Shown: positions 6,318-10,838 of the stretch, in pieces | Numbering within the stretch: position 1 is the stretch's first letter | How the letters are laid out: each line of letters starts with the position of its first letter | NCBI GenBank assembly: GCA_937930305.1 | Contig: CALGLE010000004.1 | Location: 156,920 to 220,919 of the forward strand | Source of the DNA: an uncultured Granulosicoccaceae bacterium | GTDB lineage: Bacteria > Pseudomonadota > Gammaproteobacteria > Granulosicoccales > Granulosicoccaceae | Direction of reading: 5' to 3' | Length of the DNA stretch: 64,000 bases | Translations under genes and position numbers: made by a program | Notes under the pieces: generated by a model | Databases searched by the model: none | What the model was told of the DNA's origin: nothing | Seen by the model: only the letters and a program-made list of their open reading frames with translations

Positions 6318-8144
6318 GTGACGTTCACTGAAGCACCAGGTAGGCAAGAATCAGGTTTAGATACTTCGCGCCTGCTTGGGCATGTGAAAATAATGATGGT
6401 GGACGATGAGCCACTGAATATGGATGTTCTTCGCATCCATTTAGAAATCGAAGGCTACGCAAATTTCGTATGCGTCAGTGATTCTAATAAGGCCATTTCC
6501 ACTATGGAAGTGGAGCAACCTGATGTTGTGTTGCTGGATCTGGTCATGCCCGGAATGACGGGTTTCGACATTCTTGGAAAATTGCGTGAACATGAAACTT
6601 TAAAACATATTCCTATTGTCGTTTTGACTTCATCAGACGATGCTGAAACAAAACTACAAGCTCTGCAACTGGGCGCGAGCGACTTTCTAGCGAAGCCGGT
6701 AGACGCCAGTGAACTTGCACTGCGAATGCGTAACACCCTAGCGGCTCGTGCGTATGAACAGCGAATGAAATATCAAGACCCGCTGACGCAATTACCGAAT
6801 CGGTTGTTGTTTACTCAAAGGGCCACCAGCGCACTAAAGAAAGCACGAGAAATTAATCACAAAGCGGCGGCAATACTGGTCAACATCAATCGCTTTAAAT
6901 TGATAAACGATTCATTAGGCCCCTCACGTGGTGACGATGTTTTATGGGCATTCAGTCAACGCTTATGCCAAGCGTTTGATTTATCACCTGAAGATGGATT
7001 CGCCGATGATTCTGAGCTGAATCACTTTATCGCTAGAATCGGTGGTGATCGATTTGTGGTTTTGGTGCCAGGGGTTGAGTATTCCCATGAGGGAGTTAAG
7101 GCAGATCGCACCACCGGACCTGCAGAAGAGATGAGACAGGCCATTGACCGATTTCTCGAGGTAATGGAGAAGCCATTAAGCATCGGCGGCCAAGACATCT
7201 ATTTGAACGTGTATCTGGGTGTGTCCAGCTTATCTTCTGCCACACGATCAGTAGAGCATCTGATCAACGATGCTGAAACCGCAATGATGCATGCGCGTCG
7301 TCGCTTGAACACTAAAGTGGCTTACTACTCTGAGCAGATGGATTCAAAAGCACATGAGCTGCTGAGCATTGAAAACGGATTACGCACTGCGGTAGAAAAC
7401 AAAGAAATTTTTGTTGTTTATCAACCGAAAGTGAAGATAGCCACTGGGCAAATCACTGGCGCTGAGGCATTAGTGCGCTGGATGCATCCAGAATTCGGGC
7501 TAATATCCCCGGTTGATTTCATTCCGCTGGCCGAGGACTCAGGCATGATTGTGTCCATCGGTGAATGGGTGTTACGAGAGGCCTGTACGCGAGCTGTAGA
7601 GTGGCAAAAAATCACTTGCGAAAATTTTCACATAGCGGTAAACGTCTCCATTCGGCAGCTGTACGAACCTGATTTCACCAGCTTAGTTGAGCAAGTGCTT
7701 AAGGAAACCGGTCTGGATCCACGGTGTTTAGTCATCGAACTGACTGAAAATATGATCATGGAAGACGCCGATAGCAATATCATCAAAATGCGGCAATTGA
7801 AAGAATTAGGCATTCGTTTGTCCATAGATGATTTTGGAACAGGTTACTCGGCATTAAATTATTTGCAGCGTTTCTCAATGGATCAATTGAAAATTGATCA
7901 ATCTTTCATTCGACCGATCAATTCTCCAGATGAAGCGCAACCGATCGTTCGTGCGCTTATAACGCTGGCGCACGATTTAGGTATGCATGTTGTGGCTGAA
8001 GGGGTTGAAACACGCAATCAACTCGCGCTACTAGCGAATCTATCCTGCGATGAATATCAGGGATATCTGTGCAGTAAACCGGTGGCAAGTACCAGCTTCA
8101 TTCGGTTGTTGCTAGAACAGGCTGATATGAGAAAGTCCGCTTAA
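6318..8144 (+). CDS. REC-GGDEF(degenerate)-EAL response regulator, probable c-di-GMP phosphodiesterase
   Basis: REC 'MVDDE...LLDLVMP...FLAKP'; GGDEF-like site reads GGDRF (7041-7055); EAL motifs 'GAEALVRW', 'IELTE', 'DDFGTGYS', 'KIDQSF', 'AEGVE', 'QGY' are intact. Confidence 0.92.
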   Translation: MTFTEAPGRQESGLDTSRLLGHVKIMMVDDEPLNMDVLRIHLEIEGYANFVCVSDSNKAISTMEVEQPDVVLLDLVMPGMTGFDILGKLREHETLKHIPIVVLTSSDDAETKLQALQLGASDFLAKPVDASELALRMRNTLAARAYEQRMKYQDPLTQLPNRLLFTQRATSALKKAREINHKAAAILVNINRFKLINDSLGPSRGDDVLWAFSQRLCQAFDLSPEDGFADDSELNHFIARIGGDRFVVLVPGVEYSHEGVKADRTTGPAEEMRQAIDRFLEVMEKPLSIGGQDIYLNVYLGVSSLSSATRSVEHLINDAETAMMHARRRLNTKVAYYSEQMDSKAHELLSIENGLRTAVENKEIFVVYQPKVKIATGQITGAEALVRWMHPEFGLISPVDFIPLAEDSGMIVSIGEWVLREACTRAVEWQKITCENFHIAVNVSIRQLYEPDFTSLVEQVLKETGLDPRCLVIELTENMIMEDADSNIIKMRQLKELGIRLSIDDFGTGYSALNYLQRFSMDQLKIDQSFIRPINSPDEAQPIVRALITLAHDLGMHVVAEGVETRNQLALLANLSCDEYQGYLCSKPVASTSFIRLLLEQADMRKSA

Positions 8145-8650
8145 CCCTTCCAAACCATAGGCTGAGTGTCAGCCCGTTGGTACAATGGATGGGCAGGACT
8201 TCCATCGGTATTAATAGCTAAACAGAACAGTTGGCCTACATAGCGTTTCGCCAAACGTTTATCTTGCTCTTTCCAACCTCCATGTCGCCCCCAGCAAGCA
8301 ATAACCAGATCAGCGTTATCTATGGCTTGATGTAAGTGTTTCGAGTTATAAGGCCCCACAGGATCAATCGCATTTTTTAGCTCATTGGGGTAGGGCGTTC
8401 GATAAGCAAATAGATTGATGACCGTGAGTGCGTTGAAGCCCCAGCGTCGAGTGAAATCCATACAGCGACGAATGGTGGGATCATCCACGCGGTGATCCGC
8501 CGTGGAAGGATTGAGTCCGATAAACACCACACGCCTGGCCGCCTCGTCATTAGCCCAATAACGCTCTAACTTGTATCGGTAGCGTTTGCATCGAGAAAAA
8601 GCTGCCGTGCGTGTGATGTTCTCGTTTTTCAACGGCGCCTCTTGCGCCAT
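8141..8650 (-). CDS. DUF1643 family protein
   Basis: 'SRCKRYRYKLERYW', 'FIGLNPSTAD...DDPTIRRC', 'NLFAYR', 'VIACWG', 'PAHPLY'; start overlaps the rtcB remnant stop by 22 nt. Confidence 0.88.
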   Translation of the reverse strand: MAQEAPLKNENITRTAAFSRCKRYRYKLERYWANDEAARRVVFIGLNPSTADHRVDDPTIRRCMDFTRRWGFNALTVINLFAYRTPYPNELKNAIDPVGPYNSKHLHQAIDNADLVIACWGRHGGWKEQDKRLAKRYVGQLFCLAINTDGSPAHPLYQRADTQPMVWKG

Positions 8651-8958
8651 GGGGCGTCGTTTTGCCAGTCACCTGCCATGATGCATCCATAAGGCTGCAC
8701 GCGATCGACCACATCACACAGGGCGAACCGGTGCATATCCTCTTGAACAGCGGCAGCGTTTTTATACGCCGACGGCAGTTCTGATATATCAGGCTTGCCA
8801 CAATAAAACCGCGCATCCAGCCCTTCGGTCTCTTGTGCGTACACGACTTCCTCATCTTTTGTGTGAGGTGCGGCGTTGATGGTGCGCAACAGTTCACCCA
8901 CGATACGACCTTGCGGGCAGCCCAGTTTTAATAGCTCTTTTCCAGTCCAGGTTTTCAT
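8629..8958 (-). pseudogene. rtcB: RtcB-family RNA ligase remnant with large in-frame internal deletion
   Basis: N-terminus 'KTWTGKELLKLGCPQG' fused at about 8860-8872 to the RtcB C-terminus 'ETEGLDARFYCGKPDISELPSAYK...PYGCIMAGDWQNDAPWR'; 109 aa versus roughly 400-480 aa for the family; no GNH, HxGSR or HGAGR motifs. Confidence 0.8.
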
Positions 8959-8986
8959 AGCTTCTTGCTCTTCTTAGTTAATCCTC

Positions 8987-9326
8987 TTACGCGTTCAGGT
9001 GTTTAAACCCAGCGCGTAAGTACTGCATTTGATCCGCTAATACGGACCGATTCGACAACGCAAACCATTCATTCACGTGCAAACAGTGCCGCGTTGTTAA
9101 TACGAGGCACACTTTGCTCGCTAACTTTCCCTTTCACGGCAATAATAGTGGGCACGGCAATGACTGAGCGAGTTCCGTCGCGTTGGTAACCCCCATGCAG
9201 TGTGCTGGCAATTTCATTCATCGACCAAGACACCAGATCTTTTGCCAACAGTGAGGCTGCGGATTCAAAATTAATCCAGTCGGTGGGAAGCCCAGCTTTG
9301 TTCAGTTTTAATATTTGAGTGTTCAT
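8987..9326 (-). pseudogene. HNH endonuclease remnant: N- and C-termini kept, HNH/zinc core deleted, frameshifted
   Basis: 9326-9069 gives 'MNTQILKLNKAGLPTDW...NNAALFARE*'; a second frame at 9073-8987 gives 'NEWFALSNRSVLADQMQYLRAGFKHLNA*', the typical C-terminus of this HNH subfamily; no CxYCG, DHxxP or CxxCN between them. Confidence 0.72.
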
Positions 9327-9345: not shown

Positions 9346-9372
9346 AAAAAACCCGCTAAATTAGCGGGTTTT
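9346..9372 (-). terminator. Intrinsic terminator of a putative attenuator, 20 nt upstream of the HNH start
   Basis: Minus strand AAAACCCGCTA-ATT-TAGCGGGTTTTTT: perfect stem with a U6 tail. Confidence 0.85.
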
Positions 9373-9403
9373 CAGGCAAGAACTCGATACTTAAGTTTTA
9401 CTG

Positions 9404-9484
9404 TTAAACCCGCACACGCAAAAGCGCATCTCCCATCTCTGGGAGGCAGCGATTGCCGTGTAAATTGTTGAGTATCGTATTCAT
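9404..9484 (-). CDS. Putative 26-aa leader peptide MNTILNNLHGNRCLPEMGDALLRVRV
   Basis: ATG 9484 to TAA 9404; the last codons (GCGGGTTT, 9406-9413) are complementary to the terminator 5' arm; internal hairpin CTCCCA-GAGA-TGGGAG at 9430-9445; no clear Shine-Dalgarno. Confidence 0.55.
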   Translation of the reverse strand: MNTILNNLHGNRCLPEMGDALLRVRV

Positions 9485-9707: not shown

Positions 9708-10838
9708 ATGAAAAAATTACTATTAGCGACAGCGGCCACGTTGTTATACGCAACCGCCGCTATCGCAGAAGTCAAGGTCGGAATGATCACAACATTGTCG
9801 GGTGGAGGCGCGGGTTTGGGCATCGACGTACGCGATGGTTTCATGTTGGCGATTAAGCAATCCGGTCGCGATGACATTAACGTGGTGATTGAAGATGATC
9901 AGCGCAAACCTGAAATCGCAGTGCAGCTTTCAGACAAAATGATTCAGTCTGAACGAGTGGATATAATGACTGGGATAATTTGGTCGAATCTGGCCATGGC
10001 CGTTGTGCCTTCCGCAGTTAACCAAGATGTTTTTTACCTCTCTCCCAATGCGGGGCCGTCGCCTTTAGCCGGGCCGGGCTGTCACAAAAATTACTTCAAT
10101 GTAGCGTGGCAAAATGACAATCTTCATGAAGCGGCCGGTGCCTATGCGAATGGAGTTAACTACAAAAACAGCTTCATCATGGCACCCAATTATCCTGCGG
10201 GTCAGGACGCGTTGACAGGCTATAAACGTTTTTATGAAGGCAAGTTATCTGGCGAGATTTTCACCCAGCTTGGACAGACCGACTACGCTGCAGAAATTGC
10301 TCAGATCCGCGCCAGTGGAGCGGATAGCGTGTACTTCTTTTTACCCGGTGGTATGGGTATCTCGTTCCTTAAACAATACGCGGACAGCGGTGTGGATACA
10401 CCCGTCATCGGACCTGCGTTCAGTTTCGATCAAGGCATTTTACAGGCGGTAGGTGAAGCGGCCTTAGGTGTTGTAAATACCTCGCAATGGAATAAAGACA
10501 TTGATAATCCGACCAATTCGGGCTTTGTCGATACATTTCAAGCTGAGTATGGCCGACTACCTTCGCTCTACGCCAGTCAGGGTTTCGATACCGCGAATCT
10601 GCTATTGTCCGCGCTAAACGTAGCAGAACCTTCGGATGCTGACGCATTCCGCGACGCGCTACGTGCCGCAAATTTTGATAGTACCCGAGGTGATTTTTCC
10701 TTTGGTCCTAACCACCATCCTGTGCAGACGATTTATGCGCGTGAAGTGATCAAAGAAGGTGATGTATTCACCAACAAGATCATTGGTACCGCGTTAGAAA
10801 ACCACTCTGACGCATACGCTGCTGATTGCAAAATGTAA
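9708..10838 (+). CDS. ABC transporter substrate-binding protein, branched-chain amino acid (LivK-like) family; aromatic-acid-type subgroup is inference
   Basis: Signal peptide, 'VKVGMITTLSG', 'EDDQRKPE', 'NAGPS', 'APNYPAG', 'YASQGFD'; RBS AGAGG upstream. Confidence 0.92.
   Translation: MKKLLLATAATLLYATAAIAEVKVGMITTLSGGGAGLGIDVRDGFMLAIKQSGRDDINVVIEDDQRKPEIAVQLSDKMIQSERVDIMTGIIWSNLAMAVVPSAVNQDVFYLSPNAGPSPLAGPGCHKNYFNVAWQNDNLHEAAGAYANGVNYKNSFIMAPNYPAGQDALTGYKRFYEGKLSGEIFTQLGQTDYAAEIAQIRASGADSVYFFLPGGMGISFLKQYADSGVDTPVIGPAFSFDQGILQAVGEAALGVVNTSQWNKDIDNPTNSGFVDTFQAEYGRLPSLYASQGFDTANLLLSALNVAEPSDADAFRDALRAANFDSTRGDFSFGPNHHPVQTIYAREVIKEGDVFTNKIIGTALENHSDAYAADCKM

What the first reader, a model, noticed from the sequence alone, without database searches (positions are those of the whole stretch)
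8629..9326. Two adjacent genes each lack their catalytic core while keeping both termini
Seen: the HNH gene joins 'LFAR' directly to its C-terminal 'NEWFALSNRSVLADQM' at about 9073, with a frameshift creating TGA at 9069-9071. The whole zinc/HNH core is absent. About 200 nt away, rtcB joins its first ~32 residues in frame to its last ~77 (junction about 8860-8872). All metal-binding and guanylation motifs are gone, including HGAGR. Two separate deletions spare the 28-nt intergenic spacer, the attenuator and the rtcB/DUF1643 overlap. Inference: either the nuclease-ligase pair was inactivated while regulated expression of DUF1643 was kept, or this is an assembly collapse. The rtcB remnant is still an open 109-aa frame and could be translated, maintaining translational coupling to DUF1643.
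Basis: partly seen in the sequence, partly recalled or inferred. Interest (0 to 1): 0.62.

Follow-up and report, generated by a model that had tools for sequence, protein, structure and literature searches.

The report
Two deletion-broken genes in an eroding operon
Two neighbouring genes, a DNA/RNA-cutting HNH nuclease and the RNA ligase RtcB, have each lost their catalytic middle through a clean deletion, while the third gene of the operon (DUF1643) stays intact; this is ordinary gene decay in an accessory gene cassette that relatives are also losing piece by piece.

Summary

- **HNH gene:** on the minus strand it lacks exactly 203 nt (68 codons holding the whole CxxC/HNH core). The loss shifts the frame and creates a TGA at 9069-9071.
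- **rtcB gene:** it is an open 109-aa frame. About 32 N-terminal residues are fused in frame to about 77 C-terminal residues, so roughly 332 codons with every catalytic motif are gone.
- **DUF1643:** it is intact.

Syntenic metagenome loci show the ancestral cassette: leader/terminator, HNH (180 aa), RtcB (about 442 aa) and DUF1643, convergent with the same REC-GGDEF-EAL gene. The cassette is eroding differently in each relative. One relative keeps RtcB, three have no RtcB at all, and one has also broken DUF1643. Only the window has a broken HNH.

All 75 complete frames recovered from 80 other loci of this RtcB subfamily are 391-555 aa, mostly 444-478. The 109-aa form is therefore not a normal family length.

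Both junctions are flush, with only 1-2 nt of microhomology or a short imperfect one.

The remnants are well conserved, but so is the untranslatable out-of-frame HNH tail. This points to recent deletions and gives no evidence for a functional mini-protein.

Verdict: real, recent pseudogenes. Interest is low to moderate.

The parts
9404..9484 (-). Candidate 26-codon leader ORF (MNTILNNLHGNRCLPEMGDALLRVRV*) in the conserved leader upstream of the HNH gene
   Evidence: Read from the sequence. A short ORF of 25-26 codons is alignable in L131 and L132. Translation was not tested.
9347..9373 (-). Intrinsic-terminator-like hairpin with a U-run, about 20 nt upstream of the HNH start (the 'attenuator' terminator)
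   Evidence: Found by the terminator scan. It is conserved in the window, L131, L132, L137 and L139, with C-G to U-A compensatory changes at two pairs.
9069..9326 (-). HNH pseudogene, N-terminal remnant ORF (84 homologous residues, then E, then TGA at 9069-9071)
   Evidence: 82% identical to residues 1-85 of the intact 180-aa HNH in L131. No Pfam HNH hit.
9072..9074 (-). HNH deletion junction. 203 nt (68 codons, the whole CxxC/HNH metal-finger core) are missing, which shifts the frame.
   Evidence: Global DNA alignment to L132 and a codon-level comparison with L131, L132, L137 and L139.
8987..9073 (-). HNH pseudogene, C-terminal 28 codons (NEWFALSNRSVLADQMQYLRAGFKHLNA*). They are out of frame with the start and so cannot be translated as HNH.
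   Evidence: pN against relatives is 0.06-0.09, like the values between intact pairs.
8959..8986 (-). 28-nt HNH-rtcB intergenic spacer, retained
   Evidence: The spacer is 25 nt in L132.
8629..8958 (-). Mini-rtcB: an open 109-aa frame made of about 32 N-terminal RtcB residues fused in frame to about 77 C-terminal residues. It has no catalytic motifs.
   Evidence: The AF2 model has pTM 0.45 and no fold match in the PDB.
8842..8862 (-). rtcB deletion junction interval (codons 33-39). About 990 nt (about 332 codons) are missing relative to L132.
8141..8650 (-). Intact DUF1643 gene (169 aa from the ATG at 8650, or 163 aa from the TTG at 8632, which overlaps the mini-rtcB stop as TTGA)
   Evidence: Pfam PF07799 at 135.9 bits. 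Many intact homologues at 64-75% identity. The AF2 model has pLDDT 92.7.
6318..8144 (+). Convergent REC-GGDEF-EAL gene. It is the syntenic anchor that identifies the orthologous loci.
   Evidence: 75-80% identical in L131 and L132 and in the same position.

Best explanation
The locus is a decaying copy of an accessory operon. The operon consists of a leader with terminator, HNH, RtcB and DUF1643, and it is ancestral to this lineage of marine Gammaproteobacteria. The genus assignment (probably Granulosicoccus) is an inference.

In the window's genome, two separate simple deletions removed the catalytic cores. A 203-nt frameshifting deletion hit HNH, and an in-frame deletion of about 990 nt hit rtcB. 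Neither gene can now make an active enzyme. The HNH product stops after 85 residues. The 109-aa mini-RtcB lacks every metal-binding and guanylylation motif.

DUF1643 is the only intact gene. It is probably still expressed from the conserved leader-controlled promoter. The surviving mini-rtcB frame delivers ribosomes to the overlapping DUF1643 start.

Shown: the deletions, their breakpoints, the ancestral arrangement, and the variable erosion in relatives. Inferred: that the deletions are recent, that the mini-RtcB is a non-functional relic, and that its in-frame state helps or at least does not hinder DUF1643 expression.
For: 1. Anatomy and breakpoints are established.

2. Syntenic loci next to the same REC-GGDEF-EAL/hybrid kinase/HlyD genes are in different states:
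- L132 has HNH, a full-length RtcB (one frameshift) and DUF1643.
- L131 and L139 have HNH followed directly by DUF1643, with no trace of rtcB DNA.
- L137 has HNH and a truncated, frameshifted DUF1643.

3. More distant species of the genus have DUF1643 convergent with EAL and no HNH or RtcB within about 1.3-1.5 kb upstream.

4. All 75 complete frames recovered from 80 other loci of this RtcB subfamily are 391-555 aa, mostly 444-478. All 180-182-aa HNH relatives carry the HNH Pfam domains.

5. No RtcB core exists elsewhere in the assembly.

6. Recency: synonymous sites are saturated against every relative (pS 0.7-0.8). Even so, the out-of-frame, untranslatable HNH tail still shows pN 0.06-0.09, within or just above the range for intact pairs (0.015-0.08).

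7. The HNH remnant has 4 changes at 60 otherwise invariant positions, including G30D and G37N. Intact genes show 0-4, mean 1.3. Tajima relative-rate tests show an excess of unique changes in the window for all five outgroups, significant for only one (11 vs 3, p=0.03).

8. The mini-RtcB AF2 model has pTM 0.45 and no PDB fold match.
Against: - Raw reads could not be inspected, so the assembly was not verified directly.
- No close relative (above 85% identity) is available, so the deletions cannot be dated and selection on the mini-ORF cannot be tested.
- The mini-RtcB deviates at only 1 of 34 highly conserved columns. This is also what a protein under selection would show.
- Independent in-frame N+C mini-RtcB alleles exist elsewhere (P0045, P0122), with similar boundaries. 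That could hint at a selected architecture.
Confidence: 0.8

Rival explanations
1. The mini-RtcB is a selected, functional micro-protein, made of an N-terminal 'TGKELLxLGxxxG' hairpin and the C-terminal 75 residues. It might act as a non-catalytic binder or regulator, or its in-frame state might be selected to avoid polarity on the downstream gene.
For: - At least two other in-frame N+C fusions with nearly the same boundaries exist.
- P0045 (110 aa) lies between rpmA and a GNAT gene. That is exactly where nine loci, six of them annotated as Paracoccaceae or Rhodobacter, carry a full-length RtcB.
- P0122 (139 aa) was found in two independent samples, next to a metallophosphatase.
- P0086 fuses 135 N-terminal residues to the same C-terminal block.
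- The window's allele keeps 33 of 34 highly conserved residues.
- Its stop overlaps the DUF1643 start.
Against: - There is a detection bias: only in-frame fusions are called as one ORF with both ends.
- There are three or four cases among about 15 billion proteins. Each has a different junction, and each sits where a full-length gene is the norm.
- The equally good conservation of the untranslatable HNH tail shows that conservation here needs no selection.
- The AF2 model has pTM 0.45 and no fold match.
- Three syntenic relatives do without any rtcB.
- In P0045 and P0122 the downstream gene does not overlap the mini-ORF.
Confidence: 0.1
2. The deletions are an assembly or consensus artefact. 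The organism would have full-length HNH and rtcB, or a mixed population in which the assembler chose a minor deletion path.
For: - The genome is a draft of 55 contigs and may be a MAG.
- No reads could be examined.
- The exact alleles occur on only this one contig in the protein collection.
Against: - Both junctions are flush, with at most 1-2 nt of microhomology or a short imperfect one. A graph assembler has no repeat to collapse on.
- There are two independent deletions within 250 nt, deep inside a 307-kb contig.
- No orphan RtcB or HNH-core fragment exists on any other contig.
- Relatives show that real, different deletions of the same genes occur in nature.
Confidence: 0.07
3. Both deletions arose in one complex event, such as template switching or microhomology-mediated repair of a single break. 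They may have been selected together because the HNH/RtcB pair became harmful.
For: - The two junctions are only about 215 nt apart.
- Both have minimal microhomology.
- No relative shows an intermediate state with only one of the two deletions.
Against: - Nothing distinguishes one event from two.
- Relatives lose rtcB alone while keeping HNH, so the two genes are not obligatorily linked.
Confidence: 0.03

Closest known systems
RtcB RNA 3'-phosphate/5'-OH ligase family (Pfam PF01139; E. coli RtcB of the rtcBA repair operon, archaeal and human tRNA-splicing ligase)
   Same: The N-terminal 32 and C-terminal 77 residues are clear homologues of a 444-478-aa bacterial RtcB subfamily. They are 65% and 77% identical to the L132 copy.
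   Different: About 332 codons are missing, including the Cys/His/Asp metal ligands and the HGAGR guanylyl-histidine motif. The Pfam score is below the cut-off. It is a remnant and cannot be a ligase.
Stand-alone 180-190-aa HNH endonucleases of Gammaproteobacteria (PF01844, PF13395, PF14279)
   Same: The N-terminal 84 and C-terminal 28 residues are collinear with intact 180-aa relatives, 84% identical to L131 over these 112 residues. The genome also has an intact paralogue on contig C21.
   Different: The 68 residues that carry CxxC...DH...N...CxxCN are deleted and the frame is shifted. Neither remnant ORF has a Pfam HNH hit.
Bacterial pseudogenes formed by deletional decay of dispensable accessory genes (general knowledge: deletional bias in bacterial genomes)
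   Same: There are simple deletions with little microhomology. The loss is patchy and lineage-specific across relatives, and the still-useful neighbour is retained.
   Different: One of the two deletions happens to be in frame, leaving an ORF that keeps both native termini and overlaps the next gene's start.
Leader-peptide transcription attenuators (trp and leu operon leaders)
   Same: There is a short upstream ORF and a conserved intrinsic terminator immediately before the first gene. Rfam gives weak hits to Trp_leader and Leu_leader (E 0.06 and 0.9).
   Different: The hits are below the Rfam gathering scores. No antiterminator or regulatory codon run was demonstrated here.

Membership tests
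RtcB (PF01139) | Whole-domain match above the Pfam gathering score (27 bits) | tested here: not met
   The score is 19.7 bits and only profile positions 362-424 of 426 are matched. No other PF01139 match exists in the genome.
RtcB (PF01139) | Catalytic motifs: metal-binding Cys/His/Asp (MPDACPAG, HSADICCS, GDGNHF, HHGSR) and the guanylylated His in HGAGR | tested here: not met
   All of them are absent in alignments with full-length homologues.
RtcB (PF01139) | Homology of the retained ends to genuine RtcB genes | tested here: met
   tblastn against L132 gives E 3e-17 for the N-terminus and 6e-38 for the C-terminus. The query gave 271 proteins at E<=0.001; every one inspected is an RtcB or a fragment of one.
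HNH endonuclease (PF01844/PF13395/PF14279) | Beta-beta-alpha metal finger with CxxC...H...N...H/CxxC | tested here: not met
   Neither remnant ORF has a Pfam hit. The 68-residue core present in seven intact relatives is deleted.
HNH endonuclease (PF01844/PF13395/PF14279) | Single open reading frame of about 180 aa | tested here: not met
   A 203-nt deletion shifts the frame, giving a TGA after codon 85.
DUF1643 (PF07799) | Full-length domain match above the gathering score | tested here: met
   135.9 bits against a 22.5-bit cut-off, covering profile positions 1-134 of 134. The 30 columns invariant across all 74 aligned sequences include the window's protein. The AF2 model has pLDDT 92.7.
Leader-peptide attenuator | Short leader ORF, intrinsic terminator before the first gene, and an alternative antiterminator | tested here: inconclusive
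   The terminator is conserved with compensatory changes, and a short ORF is present. No antiterminator pairing was tested. The Rfam leader hits are below threshold.

The most novel reading that the evidence does not exclude
In-frame 'mini-RtcB' alleles keep only the N-terminal ~30-residue hairpin and the C-terminal ~75 residues. They may arise repeatedly in unrelated bacteria (this Gammaproteobacterium, the P0045 locus with Paracoccaceae-type rpmA/GNAT synteny, and the P0122 lineage seen in two samples). They may be retained by selection, either as a non-catalytic protein or because an in-frame relic keeps translation and transcription flowing to the downstream gene.
Probability: 0.1. Interest if true: 0.55.

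Novelty: new member of a known kind. Interest (0 to 1): 0.25.

Why it matters
The main value is for annotation. The 85-aa 'HNH' and 109-aa 'RtcB' ORFs should be marked as pseudogene remnants. This genome should be recorded as having no RtcB ligase at all.

The comparative picture is mildly useful. It defines a previously undescribed, leader-controlled HNH-(RtcB)-DUF1643 cassette in a marine gammaproteobacterial lineage. It shows that DUF1643 and the leader are the stable parts, while RtcB is dispensable.

The recurrent in-frame mini-RtcB alleles offer a small natural test case. They could show whether non-polar (in-frame) deletions are favoured when an upstream operon gene dies.

Tried and rejected
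- DNA search of 40 relatives, the search for related loci with DUF1643 in genome contigs and the same in metagenome contigs found no close locus. The syntenic relatives came only from a protein search with the two HNH remnants joined, followed by contig look-ups.
- Synteny through the LivK-like gene upstream failed. Relatives have other neighbours there.
pS is 0.7-0.8, which is saturated, against every available relative.
- Adding the mini-protein to the full-length alignment with MAFFT --addfragments misplaced the N-terminal part. This was redone on trimmed N+C sequences.
- The idea that HNH-RtcB-DUF1643 is a widespread conserved trio was rejected. None of 80 loci of this RtcB subfamily has HNH or DUF1643 within 3.5 kb. 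Most HNH homologues in the class stand alone.
- The idea that the short forms are normal family lengths was rejected.
- Fold search of the mini-RtcB model gave nothing.
- Fold search of DUF1643 gave only weak matches to alpha/beta-hydrolases and to a uracil-DNA glycosylase (TM about 0.4, E>=1.6e-3). No function is claimed from them.
- PDB sequence search with DUF1643 found nothing.
- The literature search shows that DUF1643 is uncharacterised.

Full report
**What is in the window**

Three co-oriented reading frames lie on the minus strand between a convergent REC-GGDEF-EAL gene (6318-8144, +) and a divergent LivK-like gene (9708, +):
- an 85-aa ORF at 9326..9069;
- a 109-aa ORF at 8958..8629;
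- a 169-aa ORF at 8650..8141.

Pfam recognises the third ORF as a complete DUF1643 (135.9 bits). It recognises the second only as the last 60 positions of RtcB (19.7 bits, below the 27-bit cut-off). It finds nothing in the first ORF, or in the out-of-frame 41-aa ORF at 9112..8987. The window is C4:156920-220919 of a 55-contig, 4.2-Mb genome, and contig C4 is 307 kb long.

**The rtcB remnant**

A full-length RtcB of the same subfamily from a congeneric genome (478 aa, L003) aligns with both ends of the 109-aa protein and has about 370 extra residues between them. The closest copy lies in the syntenic metagenome locus L132. It is 65% identical over residues 1-43 and 77% identical over residues 36-109.

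All catalytic motifs fall in the missing part: MPDACPAG, HSADICCS, GTQGDGNHF, HHGSR and HGAGRN.

At the DNA level, about 990 nt (about 332 codons) are absent. The junction lies within codons 33-39 (CAC ACA AAA GAT GAG GAA GTC, window 8862-8842). At most, an imperfect GAGnnnGT similarity exists between the two parental sites.

No other RtcB sequence exists in the assembly.

**The HNH remnant**

I joined the two HNH pieces into one search query. This retrieved intact relatives of 180-182 aa, up to 79% identical over the BLASTP-aligned part, and all carry the HNH Pfam domains. Against seven of them the window is collinear for residues 1-84 and 153-180 and lacks residues 85-152. That block is the whole CxxC...DH...N...CxxCN core.

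The deletion is exactly 203 nt. The junction reads CGTGA|ATGAATGG at 9073 +/- 1, with 1-2 nt of microhomology. The deletion shifts the frame and produces the TGA at 9069-9071.

**The ancestral arrangement and its erosion**

Contig look-ups for the intact HNH relatives gave loci syntenic with the window, each followed by the same convergent REC-GGDEF-EAL gene (and, where the contig reaches that far, the hybrid-kinase and HlyD genes). They are in different states:

| Locus | HNH | RtcB | DUF1643 |
|---|---|---|---|
| L132 | intact | full-length (about 442 aa), split by one frameshift | intact |
| L131 | intact | none; DUF1643 follows directly, probable TTG start inside the HNH 3' end | uninterrupted frame from a probable TTG start (the gene caller called only 111 aa) |
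| L139 | intact | none; 28-nt spacer to DUF1643 | intact |
| L137 | intact | none | N-terminally truncated and frameshifted |
| window | deleted core, frameshifted | deleted core, in frame | intact |

- The frameshift in the L132 RtcB may be a sequencing error. The EAL gene of L137, from the same metagenome, is also split.
- L131, L137 and L139 contain no detectable rtcB DNA.
- More distant species of the genus have DUF1643 convergent with EAL and no HNH or RtcB hit within about 1.3-1.5 kb upstream.
- The cassette is therefore an accessory module in flux. DUF1643 is its most constant part, HNH comes next, and RtcB is usually absent. The window is the only case with a broken HNH.

The trio is also not a general association. 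None of 80 loci of this RtcB subfamily from named genomes has this HNH or a DUF1643 within 3.5 kb. The 75 complete RtcB frames recovered from them are 391-555 aa, mostly 444-478.

**Regulatory parts**

The leader upstream of HNH is conserved in the window, L131, L132 and L137; L139 could be aligned only from the conserved block just before the terminator onward. It contains:
- a short ORF of 25-26 codons in the window, L131 and L132;
- a small hairpin inside that ORF;
- an invariant CCCGY...RCGGGUUUUUU terminator hairpin with C-G to U-A compensatory changes.

Rfam gives only sub-threshold hits to amino-acid operon leaders. So the 'attenuator' is real as a conserved terminator-containing leader. 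Its switching mechanism was not tested here.

The collection's own gene caller starts the window's DUF1643 at the TTG at 8632 (163 aa, P0254). That start overlaps the mini-rtcB stop as TTGA and is preceded by AAGAGG, so translational coupling is plausible.

**Real or artefact?**

The indirect evidence argues against an assembly collapse:
- both junctions are flush, with no shared k-mer-length sequence;
- the locus lies deep inside a long contig;
- no orphan core fragments exist in the assembly;
- relatives carry other, different natural deletions of the same genes.

**Relic or functional mini-protein?**

The mini-RtcB differs from the family consensus at only 1 of 34 columns that are at least 90% conserved. 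Full-length members average 0.65. This cannot be read as evidence of selection, for two reasons.
- Synonymous sites are saturated against every relative (pS 0.7-0.8), so dN/dS cannot be used.
- The 28 out-of-frame codons of the HNH tail cannot be translated as HNH, yet they are equally well conserved (pN 0.06-0.09, against 0.015-0.08 between intact genes).

Most of the divergence therefore predates the deletions, which are recent on this time scale.

The HNH remnant shows a slight excess of changes. It has 4 substitutions at 60 positions invariant in seven intact relatives, including G30D and G37N. Relative-rate tests give an excess in the window for all five outgroups, significant only with L132 as outgroup (11 vs 3, p=0.03).

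AlphaFold gives the mini-RtcB locally confident secondary structure but pTM 0.45. Foldseek finds no matching fold in the PDB.

**Independent mini-RtcB alleles elsewhere**

Other mini-RtcB alleles do exist.
- P0045 (110 aa) lies between rpmA and a GNAT gene. Nine loci, six of them annotated as Paracoccaceae or Rhodobacter, have a full-length RtcB in that position.
- P0122 (139 aa) occurs in two samples, next to a metallophosphatase.
- P0086 joins 135 N-terminal residues to the same C-terminal block.

Their junctions differ from one another. Only in-frame fusions can be detected as a single ORF with both ends. I therefore treat these alleles as a lead worth about 10% probability.

**Conclusion**

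The finding is a correct description of two recent deletional pseudogenes in an eroding accessory operon whose third gene survives. Its second alternative, assembly collapse, is unlikely but untested. The phenomenon is ordinary. The cassette and the recurrent in-frame mini-RtcB alleles are minor points of interest.

Noticed in passing
L139:1912-2064: In one syntenic relative, two tRNA genes (tRNA-Lys UUU and tRNA-Arg ACG) sit between the conserved leader terminator and the HNH start. They would be transcribed only by read-through of the terminator. In Anabaena, a translation-stress regulon (TrcR) includes rtcB, HNH endonuclease genes, a slipin gene, GNAT genes and a tRNA operon (PMC10272220).
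   Followed up: partly
own genome C21:48030-48587 (outside the window): The genome keeps a second, intact 185-aa HNH endonuclease. It is 71% identical to the stand-alone HNH of a congeneric genome and only 42% identical to the window's remnant. About 45% of sampled genomes of the class have a homologue of this HNH family.
   Followed up: partly
L135:389-1384 and L142:1223-3783: In more distant relatives of the HNH clade (59-63% identical to the window's remnant), a canonical 398-aa RtcB of a different subfamily lies about 2.5-3.6 kb upstream of the HNH gene on the opposite strand. L142 also shows a Band_7/slipin gene there. This is a second, independent HNH-RtcB neighbourhood.
   Followed up: no
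L006 (P0045) and L034, L049, L063, L070, L078, L097, L101, L103, L113: Nine loci, six of them annotated as Paracoccaceae or Rhodobacter, conserve rpmA - RtcB - GNAT acetyltransferase. One Logan contig carries a 110-aa in-frame mini-RtcB in exactly that slot.
   Followed up: partly
L144:4001-4420 and L145:1926-2345: An identical 139-aa mini-RtcB (N-terminal 30 residues plus a divergent C-terminal block) occurs in two unrelated samples, between a polysaccharide deacetylase and a metallophosphatase gene.
   Followed up: no
L032 (G297:C312): The only other genome of 400 sampled in the class with this RtcB subfamily carries it in a prophage-like stretch, with replication genes, a RusA-like resolvase and a DNA methyltransferase.
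   Followed up: no
window 8141-8144: The stop codons of the convergent DUF1643 and REC-GGDEF-EAL genes overlap by 4 nt. This tail-to-tail junction is conserved in L131, L132 and L139 and in more distant species of the genus.
   Followed up: partly
window 8141-8650: DUF1643 gives a confident AlphaFold model (pLDDT 92.7, pTM 0.89). It has only weak structural similarity to alpha/beta-hydrolases and to a rhizobial uracil-DNA glycosylase (TM about 0.4). Its function remains unknown.
   Followed up: partly
window 9708-10838 and own genome C19:64701-65813: The LivK-like substrate-binding protein gene has an 81% identical paralogue elsewhere in the genome. Its upstream neighbours differ in every relative examined.
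   Followed up: no
L132:4616-4677 and L137:2766-4795: Two contigs from the same JGI metagenome (3300001278) show single frameshifts in otherwise well-conserved genes: RtcB in L132 and EAL in L137. These may be sequencing errors, so the RtcB of L132 may be intact.
   Followed up: no
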